Part shown: positions 16,515 to 44,028 of the stretch, in pieces
How positions within the stretch are numbered: position 1 is the first letter of the stretch
Layout: each line of letters opens with the position of its first letter
Virus record (IMG/VR): IMGVR_UViG_3300044644_001556
Reading direction: 5' to 3' (one strand)
DNA: 64,000 bases
DNA from: a virus
Program-made: the position numbers and the translations under genes
The notes under the pieces: generated by a model
What the model was told of the DNA's origin: nothing
The model's database searches: none
What the model saw: the letters and a program-made list of their open reading frames with translations, nothing else

Positions 16515-17057
16515 ATGCGATTACCTAATATTACAATTAATGATCATGTAATACAAATACCAGCAGTATCATATACTAATGCAAATAAGCCCAGCAACCC
16601 AGTTTTAGGCGACTACTATTATCAAACTGACGGTATTACTGGTTTATATAAATTTACTGGTTTAAAATGGGATCATATGGGTGATTCGGTTCAACCAGCG
16701 AATCCATGGACTGTAGATTATAATAATAAAAAATTGATTAAATCATCATTTGTTGGTGAATTAGAAGATTTAACTGGCGCTGCTAGATATTATCCGGAAG
16801 AAGATATTTTATTAACCGATATTTGGGCTACTATTGGAGTTCCGTCTAATTTAGGAACTCGTATTAATCTATATAAAAACGGAAATACTTTATTAGAGTC
16901 AGTTTATATCCATCCAAATACTCATAAATCGATAATTATGAGTAATAATATACGATTAACCCCCGCTGATTATTTAACTATGGATTTACAAGCAACTGGT
17001 GGTTCTGATTTATTATTTACTGCAGTTTATTATGCGGTTATATATAGTGCGATATAA
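16515..17057 (+). CDS. tail-fibre-associated protein
   Basis: KPSNPVLGDYYY motif typical of fibre modules; cotranscribed with the fibre gene. Confidence 0.55.
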   Translation: MRLPNITINDHVIQIPAVSYTNANKPSNPVLGDYYYQTDGITGLYKFTGLKWDHMGDSVQPANPWTVDYNNKKLIKSSFVGELEDLTGAARYYPEEDILLTDIWATIGVPSNLGTRINLYKNGNTLLESVYIHPNTHKSIIMSNNIRLTPADYLTMDLQATGGSDLLFTAVYYAVIYSAI

Positions 17058-19867: not shown

Positions 19868-21190
19868 TTAAATTCCAGTAATAGCTCTGGCTCGAATTAT
19901 ATCTAATGATTCATCTATTAATAATTTACCATTTTCATAATAAGTTACTAAATTAGCGTCGTCAAATCGACCACCTTTTGATTTTTTACCAGAATCAGTA
20001 ATTGGGTCTTTAACTGTATCGATCCACGCACCATTAATTTCCATTGCTGATGTTTTTTGGGCGAAGCTATACGTATCTCGATTAACTTTTTGTAATAAGC
20101 CGCCACCTGAACCGTAAACTAAAGTTTCAGCTGCAAAACCAAGGGTACTTATTCTAGCACTTAAACCTTCAATCGCATCAGAGTCAATTCCATCACCTTG
20201 AATTAAACTTATATTATTTAAAACATTATAACCTTTACTATTTGAAGTATGGCCAAAATGATAATCGATTACTCTAATTAATTTAGGAATAATATCGTAA
20301 GGATCTCCGCTATCCGGGCGGATAACTACATGCAAATTCTTTTCTAAAATTAAATTTTTAAAATGGATACATAATGCTTCCGTATCTCGGTAAATATCAT
20401 AACCATCTAAAACTATTGATATAACTTCTTCGTTTTTGCAGCTATTTAATATATTGCCGATATAATCAATCTGATTATGTTTACCGTAAGCGCATTGAAT
20501 ACTATGTTCTGTTGCTCGAATTGAATGCCCAGCCATTGGTTCATTATAATATTTTCTTGCAGCTCTTAACGCAACTAAATTATCAGTACCTCTAAAATAT
20601 AATAAATGAGCCAAACCACCAATTTCTGACGTTTCTTGAGAAGAGACGCCCCGAGCTCCAAAATCATGCAATGCATAATTTAAATTATGCATATTATCTG
20701 ATGATCGGCTATATTCTTTTTTTAATCTAGAATAGTTAATATAATCATTAGAAGCAATGGTAGTCGGATACCAGACACTACGCTGCCACATAGACTCGAT
20801 ATATGAAGGTAACCAATATAATTCCGGATCATTACTTTCGATTGAATATAATGGAGTTCTCGATTGAGTTATAGAACCTTCGGGTACGCACTTAATAGTA
20901 ATCGGTAATAAACCACCATATTCATTTAATATCTTTTCCCAACCACTTCTATTAAAAGGTAATCCGTGGGCTGCTAATAATTCTTCAGCTTCATCTATAT
21001 TATCCTGAGTGATAGGATTTAATAGATGTTTTTTAATACTCATTTGAAAACCAAATGGTATAATAGTTTTATTAGGTTTTCTTGCTTCACCATATGCATA
21101 TTGAGCTGTAGTTCCGCTCGGATACATATTAAAATGGCTAGGTTTATAACTATCTGCGTCTAAGATAATATTCTGTACTAATTGAGTCAT
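19868..21190 (-). CDS. nadV: nicotinamide phosphoribosyltransferase (NAMPT)
   Basis: DSYKPSH, LHDFGARG, ATEHS, IRPDSGD, IQGDG, GSGGGLLQKVNRDT, KDPITDSGKKSKGG. Confidence 0.93.
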   Translation of the reverse strand: MTQLVQNIILDADSYKPSHFNMYPSGTTAQYAYGEARKPNKTIIPFGFQMSIKKHLLNPITQDNIDEAEELLAAHGLPFNRSGWEKILNEYGGLLPITIKCVPEGSITQSRTPLYSIESNDPELYWLPSYIESMWQRSVWYPTTIASNDYINYSRLKKEYSRSSDNMHNLNYALHDFGARGVSSQETSEIGGLAHLLYFRGTDNLVALRAARKYYNEPMAGHSIRATEHSIQCAYGKHNQIDYIGNILNSCKNEEVISIVLDGYDIYRDTEALCIHFKNLILEKNLHVVIRPDSGDPYDIIPKLIRVIDYHFGHTSNSKGYNVLNNISLIQGDGIDSDAIEGLSARISTLGFAAETLVYGSGGGLLQKVNRDTYSFAQKTSAMEINGAWIDTVKDPITDSGKKSKGGRFDDANLVTYYENGKLLIDESLDIIRARAITGI

Positions 21191-21500
21191 CGTTTTTCTC
21201 CCGTTGTTTCATCTCTTGCACTACGTTTCTAACTGGTATTACATATGATTCGGATATGCTATTATATAAAGAAGATTCAATCCAATAACCAACATTCCCC
21301 ATTCCGTATCTAGTTAAAAAGCTATTGATTTCCGCTATTTCCATTGCCTTAGGTAATCGCCAATCAGTATAACCACCGTAATTTAAGAATTGACAATATA
21401 TTGCAGCTTCTTCTTGATTTTGTAATTTAATAAATGCGTCGGATGCAATATCTAAAAAATAGTCTTGATATAAAAGTTCTTTTATCAATATCGTATTCAT
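21150..21500 (-). CDS. mini DUF1566/Lcl-like protein
   Basis: EAAIYCQFLNYGGYTDWRLP...VIPVR. Confidence 0.7.
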   Translation of the reverse strand: MNTILIKELLYQDYFLDIASDAFIKLQNQEEAAIYCQFLNYGGYTDWRLPKAMEIAEINSFLTRYGMGNVGYWIESSLYNSISESYVIPVRNVVQEMKQREKNDDSISTEYYLRRR

Positions 21501-22462
21501 TTATATCGATCATTTAAATAAGCTGGTTTTAAAAATTCAGCAGTCATAGCCATAATTATATCTCTATGATCATGAAATAAATTTAAATTATTGATTGCAT
21601 ATGATATATCGAACCACTGAACTTCGCTTGCGTCGTCGGCAGCTTTAATTTTAGGTTCGTATATTTCAGGAACTAATACTTGAAATAAAAAGCAATTAGT
21701 TACCCGCATTAAACCACCAAATTTGCGTTTTGGTGAATCAAATATATTATTAAATATCGTATAATCAATCGATTCGCGCTGATCTTTTTCTTTTATTTGA
21801 ATTCCGGCTTCTTCGAATAATTCGCGTTTCGCACAATCAAAGAAAGTTTCATCGTGATTTTTAAATCCGCCAGGTAATGCCCAAGTATCTTTCCCTGGTG
21901 CAAATTTGCGTTTAATTAATAAAATTTTACCGTCATTATAAATTAAAGCATCTGCACAATTAAACTGTAAGGTTTCAGGAAATGGATAACTAGCAAATAA
22001 TTCTTTTTCTTTATTGAAGAAATTGTATTCTTCTTGGACGCTAGGATGCAATAATCCGCACTCTAATAAATTATTACGTATATCTGTCGCGGTAGTATCA
22101 ATATCAGTATAAACTTCTACATATCTATAAGTCGGGAACCATTTTAGGTAATGATTATCTGGTTTAGTATGACCGTAAATTCGAACGTCATTAAATTTGC
22201 ATAATATTTCATTTACTTCGACTTTCCATAAATCGTCGTCATATAGATAATCATTTAATGGGAAAATCGTTACATCGGGAAACTCTTTTAATATCATATC
22301 TCGACGTTCTTGATATGTATAAGGGTTGCGTAGATTTCTCGATTGATTAGCTGAGCCTAATAAAATTACATGATTATCAGTTTCTTCGATCATTTTACTA
22401 ATAACTGCAATATGGCCGGCATGCAATGGTTGGCATCTACCTATAAAAACACCAGTTTTCAT
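21497..22462 (-). CDS. nadM: bifunctional NMN adenylyltransferase / Nudix (ADP-ribose pyrophosphatase)
   Basis: GRCQPLHAGH (HxGH), RNPYT, ATDIR; Nudix box WALPGGF...RELFEEAG; AADDA. Confidence 0.9.
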   Translation of the reverse strand: MKTGVFIGRCQPLHAGHIAVISKMIEETDNHVILLGSANQSRNLRNPYTYQERRDMILKEFPDVTIFPLNDYLYDDDLWKVEVNEILCKFNDVRIYGHTKPDNHYLKWFPTYRYVEVYTDIDTTATDIRNNLLECGLLHPSVQEEYNFFNKEKELFASYPFPETLQFNCADALIYNDGKILLIKRKFAPGKDTWALPGGFKNHDETFFDCAKRELFEEAGIQIKEKDQRESIDYTIFNNIFDSPKRKFGGLMRVTNCFLFQVLVPEIYEPKIKAADDASEVQWFDISYAINNLNLFHDHRDIIMAMTAEFLKPAYLNDRYK

Positions 22463-24475: not shown

Positions 24476-25501
24476 TTAATCTTCTTTTAATAAAAAAGTA
24501 TTGGAAATAGTTTTAAAAGTAAAGTCGCTATCATGACTCTTATATACTAAACCTTCTCTAATCTTATGATTAATAGATGGGCCTTCGGCGAATGCTAATA
24601 AATCTACTAAATTAGTTGCAGAAACTTGTGATTTTTCACTAATAATAGGAACATGATTTCCAGTAAACCCAAGCTCAACCAAATCGTTATAAATTGATTT
24701 GCGTTCATCTGGTTTAGCATACCGTTTTTCGTCGATTAAAAAGATATCAAACACAAATAGTTGAGTTGTTTCGAATTTTTCGCGATTACCTTGGATGTTC
24801 GGACCCATTAATTCACCTTGAACCGCAATATTTTTGCCGTAACTTAGTAAAACTTGATCTAATTTACTATTTGAGAACATACGGACAAATGAATTATCTT
24901 TATTATCTTCGTCAATCTTTAATTCTAAATTTCTAGAACAAACACCCAACTCGCCATTGAAATAATATCCGGTAAATGAACTACCATCTAATTTAATAGT
25001 AATCTCATAGGATTCATTGATACGTTTTTCGAAAATATCACGAACTAAATTTTGACAACGCTCTTGATCGGTTTTGTGAATAAATGATGGAAAATTACCT
25101 TTAGCGTTACCGGCTAATTGCCCGTTGATAGGACGTTCCCATTTTTCAATACCTAATAGTTCAGCTATATCAGTTTCTGGCGTTACATCGATTAATTCCG
25201 GATATAATGATAATGGTAAGATTAAACCTTGAGAAATTTGCCCTCGTAATTTAATAGTTCTAATTCTCATACCATCTTTACCTTCCCATCGAATCGCTTT
25301 GCTTGCTAAAAAAGCGTACCGTTCATCAGTTAATGGTAAAAAACTATCGATCTCAAAATAAACACCTTTATCTCCGACTTGAAATTCTCCTTTTTTTACG
25401 ACGACCGGCCAACCACCATCTATAATCGCGCATTCAATTGCATCAGCATTTTCAATCGGAAGTAATTCTGTGATTGGTTTAATAGTTACTAATTGTCTCA
25501 T
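24476..25501 (-). CDS. RNA ligase (DRB0094/Rnl2-like family) with N-terminal OB-like domain
   Basis: PIENADAIE, KLRGQISQGL, motif I KLDGSS, GELMGPNIQGN, FVFDI, REGLVYK, FKTISN. Confidence 0.88.
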   Translation of the reverse strand: MRQLVTIKPITELLPIENADAIECAIIDGGWPVVVKKGEFQVGDKGVYFEIDSFLPLTDERYAFLASKAIRWEGKDGMRIRTIKLRGQISQGLILPLSLYPELIDVTPETDIAELLGIEKWERPINGQLAGNAKGNFPSFIHKTDQERCQNLVRDIFEKRINESYEITIKLDGSSFTGYYFNGELGVCSRNLELKIDEDNKDNSFVRMFSNSKLDQVLLSYGKNIAVQGELMGPNIQGNREKFETTQLFVFDIFLIDEKRYAKPDERKSIYNDLVELGFTGNHVPIISEKSQVSATNLVDLLAFAEGPSINHKIREGLVYKSHDSDFTFKTISNTFLLKED

Positions 25502-42236: not shown

Positions 42237-42626
42237 TTATAACAACTTAAGGTGCTTGGTTAAAAAATCGATATTATCTGGATAATCAGGCCCTATCGCT
42301 AAACAAGTTAGTGTAGGAATTCCATTAAATTCAGTTAATCCAGCATCGGTTATTAACTTAACATTAACATTTGCGGCTAATGTATTATCATAAATTTCTA
42401 ATAATTCTGCTTCGCTATCTACCGAAACACATATTTTTGTAAATAAGCCATTAATCCATTGTTCAAGTGCGTAATTCTCAGTAAGATTAATTTCTATGCG
42501 ATCATCATTATAAGATCTATAATTTAAAACTGCTCCCATTGACGCATGAGCTACTTGGGCTGCAATTTTACCTTTGCGCATATTAAGATCTTTACGAACT
42601 ACGATTACTTGTTTTGGTAATGTCAT
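42237..42626 (-). CDS. pth2: peptidyl-tRNA hydrolase, Pth2 family
   Basis: KQVIVVRKDLNMRKGKIAAQVAHA, KICV, DAGLTEF, TCLAIGP. Confidence 0.93.
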   Translation of the reverse strand: MTLPKQVIVVRKDLNMRKGKIAAQVAHASMGAVLNYRSYNDDRIEINLTENYALEQWINGLFTKICVSVDSEAELLEIYDNTLAANVNVKLITDAGLTEFNGIPTLTCLAIGPDYPDNIDFLTKHLKLL

Positions 42627-42641
42627 ATTTATTCCGTTAAT

Positions 42642-42728
42642 TGGCGGAAGGTATAGGATTCGAACCTATACAACGATTTCTCGTTGACGGATTAGCAATC
42701 CGCTCTATTACCATTCTAGCAACCTTCC
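42642..42728 (-). tRNA. tRNA-Ser(GCT)
   Basis: Loop TTGCTAA, long variable arm, CCA. Confidence 0.9.
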
Positions 42729-42742
42729 GTTTATTTCTAACA

Positions 42743-42935
42743 AGATACATTTTAATTTCGCCAATGAAAGTTTTTGAAATTGCTGTTAGTATCTTTAAAT
42801 TATCTAGATATCATCTTTCAATTATAAAATTGATATCTATAACTCGGAGTGAGTTTTATTTTTTTTAAAAATCCATTTTAACTAGATACATTTTAATTTC
42901 GCCAATGAAAGTTTTTGAAATTGCTGTTAGTATCT
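42743..42935 (-). repeat. two identical 52-nt hairpin units (AGATACTAACAGCAA...GTATCT)
   Basis: 42743-42794 equals 42884-42935. Confidence 0.9.
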
Positions 42936-43356: not shown

Positions 43357-44028
43357 ACTATCATACATCTCCACTAGTGGGACTTGAACCCACGCCCGAT
43401 ATTGTCCGGTAGCCGGCATGTTCATGCATCCGAACATCGTAAGGTCTACTCCTCCCATGGCTCTAACCAACTGAGCTATAGTGGAGATGTATGATAGTGC
43501 TTGTCTTTCCAAGCCGTCATGAAGGTCTCCGTTACTATCAATAATTGCCACCGCAAGGAATCGAACCTAGATTTACCGGTTTGTTAGCAAGTTGCCTTAC
43601 ACCATTTAGACGACAATAGCAATTATTGATAGTGCTTGTCTTTCCAAGCGGTCACCACACATTAAATATTAATAAAACGCTGATGGGATTCGCACCCATA
43701 TTTCAAACCGCGCTGGGTAAGTGTACTTCAAGTCTTATACGACAGCGTTTTATTTCTAATCTGAAAGTTGTCTTAAGTAGACGGTTCAGCTCCCCTACAG
43801 CCGTTGGTTACCGAGTCGGTGGTCGGTTGATAATTATAATATAACTATCAATAAAATGCACGTTACTTCTTCCGAAATATAATATCTTAAGCTACTATAC
43901 TCGGCTTTACTGAGCTTTCCCCACTTGCGTGCTTTATACTCGAATCTGTACGCGCGTAACATATCGAATAAGGCCTCTACTATCTTTCGATGCATTTTAT
44001 TGATGGTGCTTGTCTTTCCAAACTGTCA
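43357..44028 (-). ncRNA. three-unit structured RNA array with tRNA-like cargo
   Basis: TGACnG(C/T)TTGGAAAGACAAGC three times, each followed by a 15-20 bp clamp stem. Confidence 0.75.

What the first reader, a model, noticed from the sequence alone, without database searches (positions are those of the whole stretch)
43357..44028. Modular ncRNA array: GGAAAGAC hairpin + long clamp stem + tRNA-mimic cargo (three units)
Seen: on the minus strand the same element TGACnG(C/T)TTG-GAAAGA-CAAGC occurs three times (44028-44008, 43654-43634, 43519-43499). Each is immediately followed by AC(T/C)ATCA..., which opens a long stem: 17 bp with one mismatch (44007-43991 with 43860-43844), 15 bp perfect (43633-43619 with 43548-43534), and 20 bp perfect (43498-43479 with 43376-43357). 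The stems differ in sequence beyond the first 7-11 nt yet stay paired. Two stems run straight into a tRNA body. Unit 1 has a canonical D-arm (TAGCTCAGTTGGTTAGAGC) and T-arm (GTGGGTTCAAGTCCCAC), but ~60 nt of other sequence replaces the anticodon arm. Unit 2 has D and T arms with an unpaired anticodon stem. Unit 3 holds a ~130-nt non-tRNA structured cargo. None encodes CCA. Inference: a cassette system in which a constant handle directs processing or protein binding of variable tRNA-shaped RNAs, e.g. decoys for anticodon nucleases or tRNA-elbow-sensing defences, or scaffolds presenting a guide loop. I cannot assign an Rfam family from memory.
Basis: partly seen in the sequence, partly recalled or inferred. 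Interest (0 to 1): 0.9.

Follow-up and report, generated by a model that had tools for sequence, protein, structure and literature searches.

The report
Conserved hairpin handle on phage RNA cassettes
Three small non-coding RNA units upstream of this phage's tRNA genes each start with a 23-base RNA hairpin that I found, with compensating mutations, in hundreds of phages and prophages from many bacterial phyla and in no RNA catalogue; its job is still unknown.

Summary
The window holds exactly three copies of UGAC-N-G-Y-UUGGAAAGACAAGCAC on the minus strand. Each is followed directly by a 15-20 bp closing stem (clamp) around a different cargo.

- **Cargos:** two are tRNA-shaped RNAs without a usable anticodon arm. 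One is a 130-nt structured RNA with homologues in four other phages.
- **Handle:** it is a widespread RNA hairpin, UGACAG-[5 bp stem]-GAAAGA-[stem]-CAC. Its stem covaries almost perfectly in unbiased scans, and its only frequent non-Watson-Crick pairs are G.U on the sense strand. It matches no Rfam 15 family and no searched paper.
- **Copy number:** 1-2 per phage genome in five records with estimated completeness of 71-100%. It lies just 5' of clamped small RNAs, genuine tRNAs and some ORFs inside operons.
- **Not a promoter:** no -10 element, and no T7-type RNA polymerase in the genomes checked. It is not tied to a phage Ro60-like gene.
- **Mobility:** the same cargo occurs with and without the handle, and phages that share almost no proteins share it.

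My best reading is a co-transcribed array of insulated small RNAs in which the handle is a cis-acting RNA boundary or processing signal. The biochemical function is not shown. This scan noted similar clamped cassettes on other DNA before, but not this handle.

The parts
44006..44028 (-). Handle copy 1: UGACAGU-UUGGAAAGACAAG-CAC. The stem has a U.G wobble, and the last two bases (AC) open clamp 1.
   Evidence: 40.2 bits
43844..44007 (-). Unit 1: a 17-18 bp clamp (44007-43991 with 43860-43844) around a ~130-nt structured non-tRNA cargo. The cargo family has homologues in L032, L035, L118 and L120.
   Evidence: I5; 51 predicted pairs, 12 with compensatory changes; the overlapping 53-aa ORF is not conserved.
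43755..43843 (-). Spacer RNA segment without a handle. Its start (UAUCAACCGACCACCGACUCGGUAAC...) is nearly identical to a segment that follows a canonical handle in IMG/VR locus L066.
   Evidence: L066 row
43671..43754 (-). Clamped tRNA-like element without a handle: a 12-bp perfect outer stem and a T-arm-like hairpin.
   Evidence: I24
43632..43654 (-). Handle copy 2 (UGACCGC...).
   Evidence: 40.6 bits
43534..43633 (-). Unit 2: a 15-bp perfect clamp that continues into a G.U-rich acceptor stem of a degenerate tRNA-shaped RNA with an 8-nt 'anticodon' loop and a T-stem mismatch. A homologue lies in L071.
   Evidence: I8; (29.0 bits); cluster 9
43497..43519 (-). Handle copy 3 (UGACGGC...), 14 nt after the end of unit 2.
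   Evidence: 40.4 bits
43357..43498 (-). Unit 3: a 20-bp perfect clamp (7-bp acceptor stem plus a 13-bp extension) around a tRNA-shaped RNA. The D and T arms are canonical and a 56-nt insert replaces the anticodon arm.
   Evidence: I1. (43.8 bits); no single excision restores an anticodon arm.

Best explanation
The 0.7-kb stretch is transcribed on the minus strand together with the tRNA array, as a string of self-contained small RNAs. Each unit folds as a 5' handle hairpin, then directly a long closing helix made from the unit's own 5' and 3' ends, then a cargo fold.

Shown: the closing helix is specific to each cargo and covaries. It would insulate each fold from its neighbours.

Inferred: the helix offers 15-24 bp of perfect double-stranded RNA, the kind of substrate that the near-universal RNase III cuts, and this would release each unit.

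Shown: the handle is a sequence-specific RNA hairpin conserved across bacterial phyla.

Inferred: it acts in cis at the 5' boundary of whatever structured RNA or cistron follows. It would mark or create the 5' end and leave a flush terminal hairpin that stacks on the clamp and protects the RNA. The recogniser would be either a ubiquitous host factor or the RNA itself.

The tRNA-shaped cargos keep the acceptor, D and T arms but cannot decode. They are stable tRNA mimics rather than tRNAs. The whole module (handle, clamp base, cargo) moves between unrelated phages.
For: RNA hairpin:
- With the partner base left free, scans of IMG/VR gave 68 of 68, 71 of 71 and 6 of 7 paired variants.
- A scan of GTDB genomes with both inner pairs free gave 116 of 122 fully paired, against about 14% expected by chance.
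- About 17 G.U pairs occur, against at most 1 A.C, so the structure lies on the sense strand.
- Two stem pairs carry 5-6 pair types each, and the covariation score is 0.58 against 0.14 for shuffles (that alignment was pre-filtered for pairing, so the raw scans above are the unbiased test).
- Shortened stems lose both partners together (L048; L187).

Not a promoter:
- 1-2 copies per phage genome (estimated 71-100% complete).
- No T7-type RNA polymerase (PF00940) was detected in those five phage genomes (the search's control genomes did not ring either, so this only shows no detection).
- No -10-like hexamer follows in the bacterial instances.
- Some copies lie inside late operons, for example before Mu gp36, KTSC, RecT and ERF genes and after a cement protein gene.

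Boundary position:
- The handle ends 2-5 nt before 12 genuine tRNAs.
- It is flush with, or 3 nt after, the 3' end of an upstream tRNA in L352 and L326.
- Its last two bases (AC) are the first clamp pairs in 50 of 260 instances, against 11 of 260 at a control anchor.

Clamp:
- Positions 8-12 are paired in 112 of 135 cells, against 60 in shuffles (maximum 84).
- The clamp base covaries: ACUAUCA/UGAUAGU, ACCAUCA/UGAUGGU, ACCAACA/UGUUGGU, ACCACAC/GUGUGGU.

Co-orientation: the units share the strand of the flanking genes and tRNAs.

Mobility: the window, G004 and G005 share almost no proteins yet carry the identical handle and clamp base. The same cargo occurs with or without the handle.
Against: - Co-transcription, RNase III cutting and any 5'-end formation at the handle are inferences.
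- A purely structural 5' cap or RNase III site would not need an invariant loop (GAAAGA) and invariant flanks (UGACAG, CAC). A specific recogniser must exist and I could not identify it.
- The invariance of loop and flanks is partly imposed by my search patterns. Model-based hits show variants: loops GAGAGA, GAAGAGA and GAAUUAGA, and 3' CAU.
- 166 of 260 instances fall in no clear downstream class.
- Handles before genuine tRNAs have no clamp, so RNase III cannot be the common denominator.
Confidence: 0.4

Rival explanations
1. The handle is a protein-binding tag, an RNP handle. It recruits one conserved protein, host-encoded or carried by some phages, to many different cargo RNAs, as Y RNAs do for Ro60.
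For: - The loop and flanks are invariant while the stem covaries, which is typical of protein-recognised hairpins.
- The loop variants all keep GA...AGA over a G-C closing pair.
Against: - No TROVE or DUF2828 gene was detected in five other handle-bearing phage genomes, four of them at least 90% complete (the DUF2828 search's control genomes did not ring, so that family is only 'not detected').
- The window, G004 and G005 share no plausible partner protein.
- No Rfam Y RNA match.
- The handle also precedes ORFs and genuine tRNAs.
Confidence: 0.2
2. The conserved handle and clamp base act mainly at the DNA level, as short homology or hairpin sites that mediate the swapping of cassettes between phages. 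The analogues are PeSL motifs of T4-like phages and integron attC sites.
For: - The identical handle and clamp base occur in phages that share almost no proteins.
- The same cargo occurs with or without the handle. In G005 the handle looks inserted between ACTATC direct repeats.
- In L025 the end of one clamp's 3' arm doubles as the start of the next handle.
Against: - The inner clamp pairs are cargo-specific and covary across the cargo, not across junctions.
- G.U pairs but no A.C pairs point to a sense-strand fold.
- No recombinase is shared.
- The tight spacing to tRNA 5' ends is not explained. This reading could hold alongside an RNA function.
Confidence: 0.1
3. The handle is a cis-acting RNA that modifies RNA polymerase or blocks Rho (put-like processive antitermination). 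This would let transcription pass through long untranslated, hairpin-rich RNA arrays.
For: - In an E. coli prophage the handle lies in a ~1-kb ORF-free leader between the repressor gene and the early genes.
- In epsilon15-like phages a variant lies in the leader before tRNA-Arg.
- The arrays are untranslated and full of terminator-like stems.
Against: - Three copies within 0.7 kb would be redundant.
- Many copies sit between translated cistrons.
- A 23-nt single hairpin is far smaller than the roughly 70-nt two-hairpin put RNAs (size from my own knowledge).
Confidence: 0.1
4. Each handle is a promoter, either sigma-70-like (TTGACA-18-TATCAA) or recognised by a phage polymerase, that drives its own small RNA.
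For: - TGACA resembles a -35 element, and in some freshwater loci the full TTGACA and an A/T-rich upstream stretch are present.
- The consensus scan lists ATGACG-18-TATCAT for copy 3.
- Units begin right after the handle.
Against: - There is no -10 in most instances across phyla, nor in clamp variants starting ACCAACAC or ACCACACA.
- Stem covariation with G.U pairs is not expected in a double-stranded promoter.
- Copy number is 1-2 per genome, and no single-subunit RNA polymerase was detected (control genomes silent).
- The handle is flush with upstream tRNA ends.
Confidence: 0.05
5. First reader's functional idea, applied to the cargo only: the tRNA-shaped units are decoys for anticodon nucleases or for defences that sense the tRNA elbow.
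For: - Units 2 and 3 keep the acceptor, D and T arms but lack a decoding arm.
- 15 of 51 related units have T-arm-like elements.
- The window also encodes an RNA ligase (phrog_968) and, by my reading of its sequence only, a peptidyl-tRNA-hydrolase-like ORF at 42237-42626.
Against: - An anticodon-nuclease decoy should keep the anticodon loop, which is exactly what is lost.
- Most cargos are not tRNA-like.
- No defence or counter-defence link was testable.
Confidence: 0.1

Closest known systems
Stable non-tRNA small RNAs encoded within phage tRNA clusters (T4 'species 1 and 2' RNAs; T5 stable RNAs). Cited from my own knowledge and from earlier notes of this scan, not checked here.
   Same: Small, structured, partly tRNA-like RNAs of unknown function that are co-located and co-oriented with phage tRNA genes.
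   Different: No sequence or Rfam relation was found. The units here carry a conserved 23-nt 5' handle and a long 5'/3' clamp, and they are interchangeable cassettes found in many unrelated phages.
Bacterial and phage Y RNAs (YrlA/YrlB) with Ro60/Rsr (Chen et al. 2014, PMC4201824)
   Same: Modular RNAs in which the 5' and 3' ends form a long stem and another module mimics tRNA. They are found in phages.
   Different: No Rfam match. Here the tRNA-like acceptor stem is continuous with the clamp; from my own knowledge YrlA is circularly permuted, and I did not read the paper to check this. The handle lies outside the stem. No Ro60-like gene was detected in five other handle-bearing phages (TROVE search validated by controls, DUF2828 search not).
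PeSL promoter-terminator cassettes of T4-like phages (PMC2839356, PMC4122927)
   Same: A short conserved composite motif with a stem-loop flanks swappable modules and is associated with modular shuffling between phages.
   Different: PeSLs are a stem-loop plus a near-consensus sigma-70 promoter with N17 spacing. They lie mainly in hyperplastic regions and are associated with variable ORFs. This handle has 1-3 copies, no -10, and an RNA-type covarying hairpin, and it flanks RNAs.
RNase III processing stems formed by 5' and 3' flanks (bacterial rRNA operons, T7 early RNA sites). Textbook knowledge.
   Same: Long perfect helices made from the sequences on either side of a stable RNA.
   Different: Cleavage is not shown here. 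Many clamps are shorter than two helical turns, and the extra abutting hairpin has no counterpart.
Earlier notes of this scan on 'RNase III-clamped swappable phage small RNAs' (e1-5699333, e1-5698094). These are unchecked AI notes.
   Same: One conserved closing stem around hundreds of different inserts between phage tRNA genes.
   Different: Only 3 of 41 short sequence words were shared with any other genome, and not with those records. No handle hairpin was reported there.

Membership tests
tRNA (Rfam RF00005) | Full cloverleaf that scores above the gathering threshold | tested here: inconclusive
   Unit 3 scores 43.8 bits, but only by skipping a 56-nt insert. Unit 2 scores 29.0 bits, exactly the threshold. 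ARAGORN calls only unit 2, as tRNA-???.
tRNA (Rfam RF00005) | 5-bp anticodon stem with a 7-nt loop (U33, purine 37), if necessary after removal of an intron | tested here: not met
   Unit 3: no single excision gives at least 4 of 5 stem pairs with U33 and R37. Unit 2: 8-nt loop and a mispaired stem.
Y RNA / YrlA | Match to the Rfam Y RNA models | tested here: not met
   No hit, even at E up to 10.
Y RNA / YrlA | Co-occurrence with a Ro60/TROVE (or DUF2828) gene | tested here: inconclusive
   An unchecked note says such a gene is present elsewhere in this genome. None was detected in five other handle-bearing phage genomes; the TROVE search rang in control genomes, the DUF2828 search rang nowhere, so DUF2828 absence is not shown.
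PeSL (promoter-early stem-loop) | Sigma-70 -35/-10 pair with 17-nt spacing next to a separate stem-loop | tested here: not met
   No -10 across instances. The hairpin lies inside the putative spacer. PeSL definition.
PeSL (promoter-early stem-loop) | Many copies per genome that flank variable ORFs | tested here: not met
   1-2 copies per phage genome (estimated 71-100% complete) and 3 in this window.
Any Rfam 15 family, including self-cleaving ribozymes, GOLLD, ROOL and C4 | Covariance-model match | tested here: not met
   Searches gave only tRNA and unrelated weak hits.
RNase III processing stem | Double-stranded helix of roughly 20 bp formed by flanking sequences | tested here: met
   Clamps of 15-24 bp. 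This is structure only.
RNase III processing stem | Staggered cleavage by RNase III | not testable with these tools
   No RNA end data.
T7-type phage promoter | A cognate single-subunit RNA polymerase and many promoter copies | tested here: not met
   Copy number is 1-2 per genome. No PF00940 match in five phage genomes, but that search's control genomes did not ring either, so polymerase absence is only 'not detected'.

The most novel reading that the evidence does not exclude
The 23-nt handle may be a new universal RNA module with its own activity or a universal recogniser.
- One form: a minimal self-processing element that cuts at UGACA|G, leaving the hairpin flush against the clamp, a geometry that would also allow end-joining or circularisation.
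- Other form: a mimic of the universally conserved 23S rRNA strand G2056-C2063. GGAAAGAC is identical to that 8-mer, which holds A2058-A2062 of the peptidyl-transferase loop.
Either form would explain why the loop is the same from Clostridia to Proteobacteria.
Probability: 0.1. Interest if true: 0.9.

Novelty: new variant of a known kind. Interest (0 to 1): 0.65.

Why it matters
- Phage tRNA islands have held unexplained stable RNAs since the T4 era.
- This work defines a precise, searchable 23-nt RNA motif with strong covariation. It links hundreds of such RNAs, genuine tRNAs and some cistrons, in phages and prophages of many phyla.
- The motif also occurs in E. coli, Klebsiella and Enterobacter prophages, where experiments are easy.
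- A sequence-specific signal conserved across phyla implies either a universal host recogniser or an intrinsic RNA activity. Either would be a new piece of phage RNA biology.
- The cassette architecture shows that small RNAs are exchanged between unrelated phages as ready-made modules.

Tried and rejected
- **Sequence similarity:** blastn of the window region against cultured phages found nothing. A 32-nt handle query found only chance-level hits.
- **Whole genome:** none is held for this window.
- **Promoter readings:** the sigma-70 promoter reading is rejected. The T7-type promoter reading is rejected.
- **By inspection only:** sigma-54, ECF sigma, LexA box, boxA/boxB nut, CRISPR repeat or Racr, hammerhead, hairpin-ribozyme, HDV-like and attC readings did not fit the sequence or spacing. 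I ran no specific test beyond Rfam.
- **Acceptor-end mimic:** the idea of a tRNA acceptor-end mimic (G-C stem plus ACCA) fails. CA follows CAC in only 29 of 278 instances.
- **Intron reading of unit 3:** rejected.
- **Homologues of the unit 3 insert:** an exact 18-mer scan of IMG/VR found none.
- **Small-protein reading of unit 1:** rejected.
- **Partner protein:** none is shared among handle-bearing phages.
- **Literature:** string searches for the motif gave 0 papers. A catalogue of about 10,000 viral structured-RNA candidates (PMC10690425) could contain it, but I could not check its models.
- **Phage identity:** no cultured relative has more than 30% identity in a helicase.

Full report
**1. 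What is in the window**

On the minus strand, upstream of a run of 11 co-oriented tRNA genes at 38.9-42.7 kb, the 23-mer TGAC-N-G-Y-TTGGAAAGACAAGCAC occurs three times and nowhere else. With up to 3 mismatches there are 3 matches against 0 in shuffles. A covariance model run without filters gives 40.2-40.6 bits for the three and at most 9.2 bits for anything else.

Each copy is followed without a gap by a long inverted repeat that encloses a different sequence:
- 17 nt at 94% complementarity,
- 15 nt at 100%,
- 20 nt at 100%.

Minimum-energy folds keep the hairpin, then the clamp, then the cargo for each unit and for the whole 0.7 kb.

The cargos are as follows:
- **Unit 3** scores 43.8 bits on the Rfam tRNA model with canonical acceptor, D and T arms, but carries 56 nt where the anticodon arm should be. 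No single excision restores an anticodon arm.
- **Unit 2** scores exactly the gathering value (29.0 bits). It has an 8-nt loop, three G.U pairs in the acceptor stem and mismatches.
- **Unit 1** is not tRNA-like. It overlaps a 53-aa ORF. The four homologous cargos in other phages have stops in all frames. They share a fold with 12 compensated pairs out of 51.
- A fourth clamped tRNA-like element without a handle lies at 43754-43671 (I24).
- The segment between it and unit 1 is nearly identical to a sequence that follows a canonical handle in another phage (L066).

No unit encodes CCA.

**2. The units are members of a large cassette family**

Most of these carry the full TGACAGC-TTGGAAAGACAAGC-AC.

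In 51 non-redundant cases, the sequence that starts at the final AC pairs with a partner 62-313 nt downstream that ends in GU.
- The first 7-9 clamp pairs are conserved but covary: ACUAUCA/UGAUAGU, ACCAUCA/UGAUGGU, ACCAACA/UGUUGGU, ACCACAC/GUGUGGU.
- The inner pairs are specific to each cargo. Positions 8-12 are paired in 112 of 135 cells, against a shuffle mean of 60 and a maximum of 84.
- The cargos fall into about 25 unrelated classes.
- 15 of 51 have a T-arm-like hairpin about 20 nt from the 3' end.

The same clamp and cargo also occur behind other abutting hairpins, such as GCCGG-AGAUCAGCA-CCGGC or a 12-bp hairpin, or behind a terminator.

The window and two nearly complete phage genomes that carry the identical handle and clamp base share almost no proteins. 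The modules therefore move horizontally.

**3. The handle is an RNA hairpin motif with a very wide distribution**

I ran scans that excluded the canonical stem base at one position and left its partner free. Only complementary partners came back:
- GCCUG/CAGGC (57), GCGUG/CACGC (9), GCGUG/CAUGC (2),
- GCUCG/CGAGC (54), GCUGG/CCAGC (15), GCUAG/CUAGC (2),
- and 6 of 7 paired in the third scan.

It gave 116 of 122 fully paired, where chance would give about 14%.

Non-Watson-Crick pairs are G.U on the sense strand (about 17 cases). A.C, which would be G.U on the other strand, is essentially absent. The fold therefore belongs to the transcript strand. Shortened stems lose both partners together. 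Pair statistics on a curated alignment are; that alignment was pre-filtered for pairing, so the raw scans are the unbiased evidence.

The hosts named in the genome records span Pseudomonadota, Bacteroidota, Clostridia, Spirochaetota, Oligoflexia, Omnitrophota and a candidate-phyla-radiation lineage. The neighbouring genes are mostly phage genes: ERF, RecT, Mu gp36, KTSC, cement protein, integrase.

Model-based hits show that the loop can also be GAGAGA, GAAGAGA or GAAUUAGA, and that the 3' flank can be CAU. The strict invariance of GAAAGA, UGACAG and CAC in my counts is therefore partly imposed by the search patterns.

A variant, UGACAC-CUCG-GAAGAGA-CGAG-G, lies in epsilon15-like phages and E. 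coli prophages. There it precedes a clamp that runs straight into tRNA-Arg.

No Rfam 15 family matches the handle or the units in any of these loci. Literal searches of the paper library found nothing.

**4. Where the handle sits**

Among 260 non-redundant instances:
- 16 lie 0-8 nt upstream of an ARAGORN tRNA. The usual gap is 2-5 nt.
- 50 open a clamp exactly at the AC, against 11 at a control anchor.
- 28 precede an ORF with a Shine-Dalgarno-like sequence within 70 nt.
- 166 are unclassified.

In two loci the handle begins immediately, or 3 nt, after the discriminator base of an upstream tRNA (L352 and L326). Several copies lie between cistrons of late operons, only 4-50 nt from the upstream stop codon.

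Phage genomes whose estimated completeness is 71-100% hold only 1-2 copies. In one 57.8-kb phage the units fill a 1.2-kb ORF-free gap between the gp2.5-like SSB gene and the PhoH/DNA polymerase genes. In an E. coli prophage they lie in a 1-kb ORF-free leader after the repressor gene.

**5. What this excludes**

- **A general phage promoter.** Copy number is too low, no T7-type RNA polymerase was detected in the five phage genomes checked (control genomes silent), most instances have no -10, the handle is flush with upstream tRNAs, and the stem shows RNA-type covariation.
- **A partner RNA of a phage-encoded Ro60-like protein.** Neither TROVE nor DUF2828 was detected in five other handle-bearing phages (only the TROVE search was validated by its controls). 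An unchecked note says this phage has such a gene about 44 kb upstream of the window.
- **A coding sequence**.
- **An intron-bearing tRNA**, for unit 3.

**6. Most likely mechanism, and how far it is shown**

*Shown:*
- a sense-strand RNA hairpin under strong selection, placed at the 5' edge of structured RNAs and some cistrons;
- cargo-specific closing helices under selection;
- interchangeable cargos;
- horizontal spread.

*Inferred:*
- The array is co-transcribed with the tRNAs.
- The closing helices insulate each fold and are cut by a double-strand-specific nuclease. RNase III is the obvious candidate.
- The handle is a sequence-specific boundary or processing signal. After processing, its hairpin would sit flush on the clamp and protect the 5' end.

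The recogniser is unknown. Because the loop is the same across phyla, it should be a near-universal host factor or the RNA itself. I put 0.4 on this composite.

**7. Comparison and novelty**

In kind, these are phage small stable RNAs linked to tRNA genes, known since T4 and T5 and echoed by Y RNAs. This scan has already noted 'clamped swappable' RNA cassettes in other phages, but those notes are unchecked and those records share no sequence words with this locus.

New here are the 23-nt handle motif, its cross-phylum conservation with covariation, its tight spacing to tRNA 5' ends, and its combination with cargo-specific clamps. I rate it a new variant of a known kind.

One curiosity is that GGAAAGAC is identical to E. 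coli 23S rRNA nt 2056-2063, the strand that holds A2058-A2062. The match is only 8 nt and could be chance (about 4%). I record it as a lead only.

**8. Limits**

- There is no expression or end-mapping data.
- The window's own genome is not held, so the copy number for the whole phage is unknown.
- The functional statements about RNase III, T4/T5 stable RNAs, put RNA and the 23S rRNA site rest on general knowledge, not on tests here.

Noticed in passing
window 43499-43506, 43634-43641, 44008-44015 (minus strand), compared with L395 (E. coli rrlH): The handle's closing pair plus loop, GGAAAGAC, is identical to the only GGAAAGAC in E. coli 23S rRNA, nt 2056-2063. That strand holds A2058-A2062 of the peptidyl-transferase loop. 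The flanks do not match, so this could be chance.
   Followed up: partly
L122 16590-16610 and 16700-16722; L138 2628-2648 and 2790-2812; many loci: Two more conserved hairpins accompany clamp units in related phages. One follows the clamp: GCGUA-GGCUGA-UACGC, with a covarying stem. One precedes other clamps: GCCGG-AGAUCAGCA-CCGGC. Their loops (GCUGAU and AUCAGC) are complementary, so they may form a kissing pair.
   Followed up: partly
L272 about 2415-2440; L273 about 2838-2862; L394 about 2290-2320: Epsilon15-like phages (Tyrion) and E. coli prophages carry a variant handle with a GAAGAGA loop in a long ORF-free leader. In L273 the following clamp runs directly into an annotated tRNA-Arg.
   Followed up: partly
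window 42735-42794 and 42876-42935: A 60-nt direct repeat at 97% identity (D2) lies in the ORF-poor stretch between tRNA-Ser (42642-42728) and the units. Its nature is unknown.
   Followed up: no
window 42237-42626 (minus strand), 24476-25501 (minus strand), 19868-22462 (minus strand): The window has a tRNA and RNA-repair flavour. It holds a 129-aa ORF next to the tRNAs that looks like a Pth2-type peptidyl-tRNA hydrolase (my reading of the sequence only), an RNA ligase (phrog_968), and NAD-salvage genes (NAMPT and NMNAT/Nudix).
   Followed up: partly
L276, L311, L314, L322, L341, L342, L346 (one Thiotrichales MAG); L274, L297, L347, L350 (one Oligoflexus MAG): Some bacterial genome bins hold many copies of the handle. 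Each copy is embedded in a repeated leader of about 130 nt (an upstream hairpin, the handle, then two more hairpins) directly in front of ORFs. This is a multi-copy leader family in non-phage contexts such as PCuAC and DUF5985 genes.
   Followed up: no
L122 16360-16420 compared with 16700-16730: In phage G005 the handle of the second unit sits between ACTATC and ACTATG. A third unit has the same upstream sequence (CCGGCAACTATC) with no handle. It looks as if the 21-nt hairpin had been inserted, or deleted, between short direct repeats.
   Followed up: no
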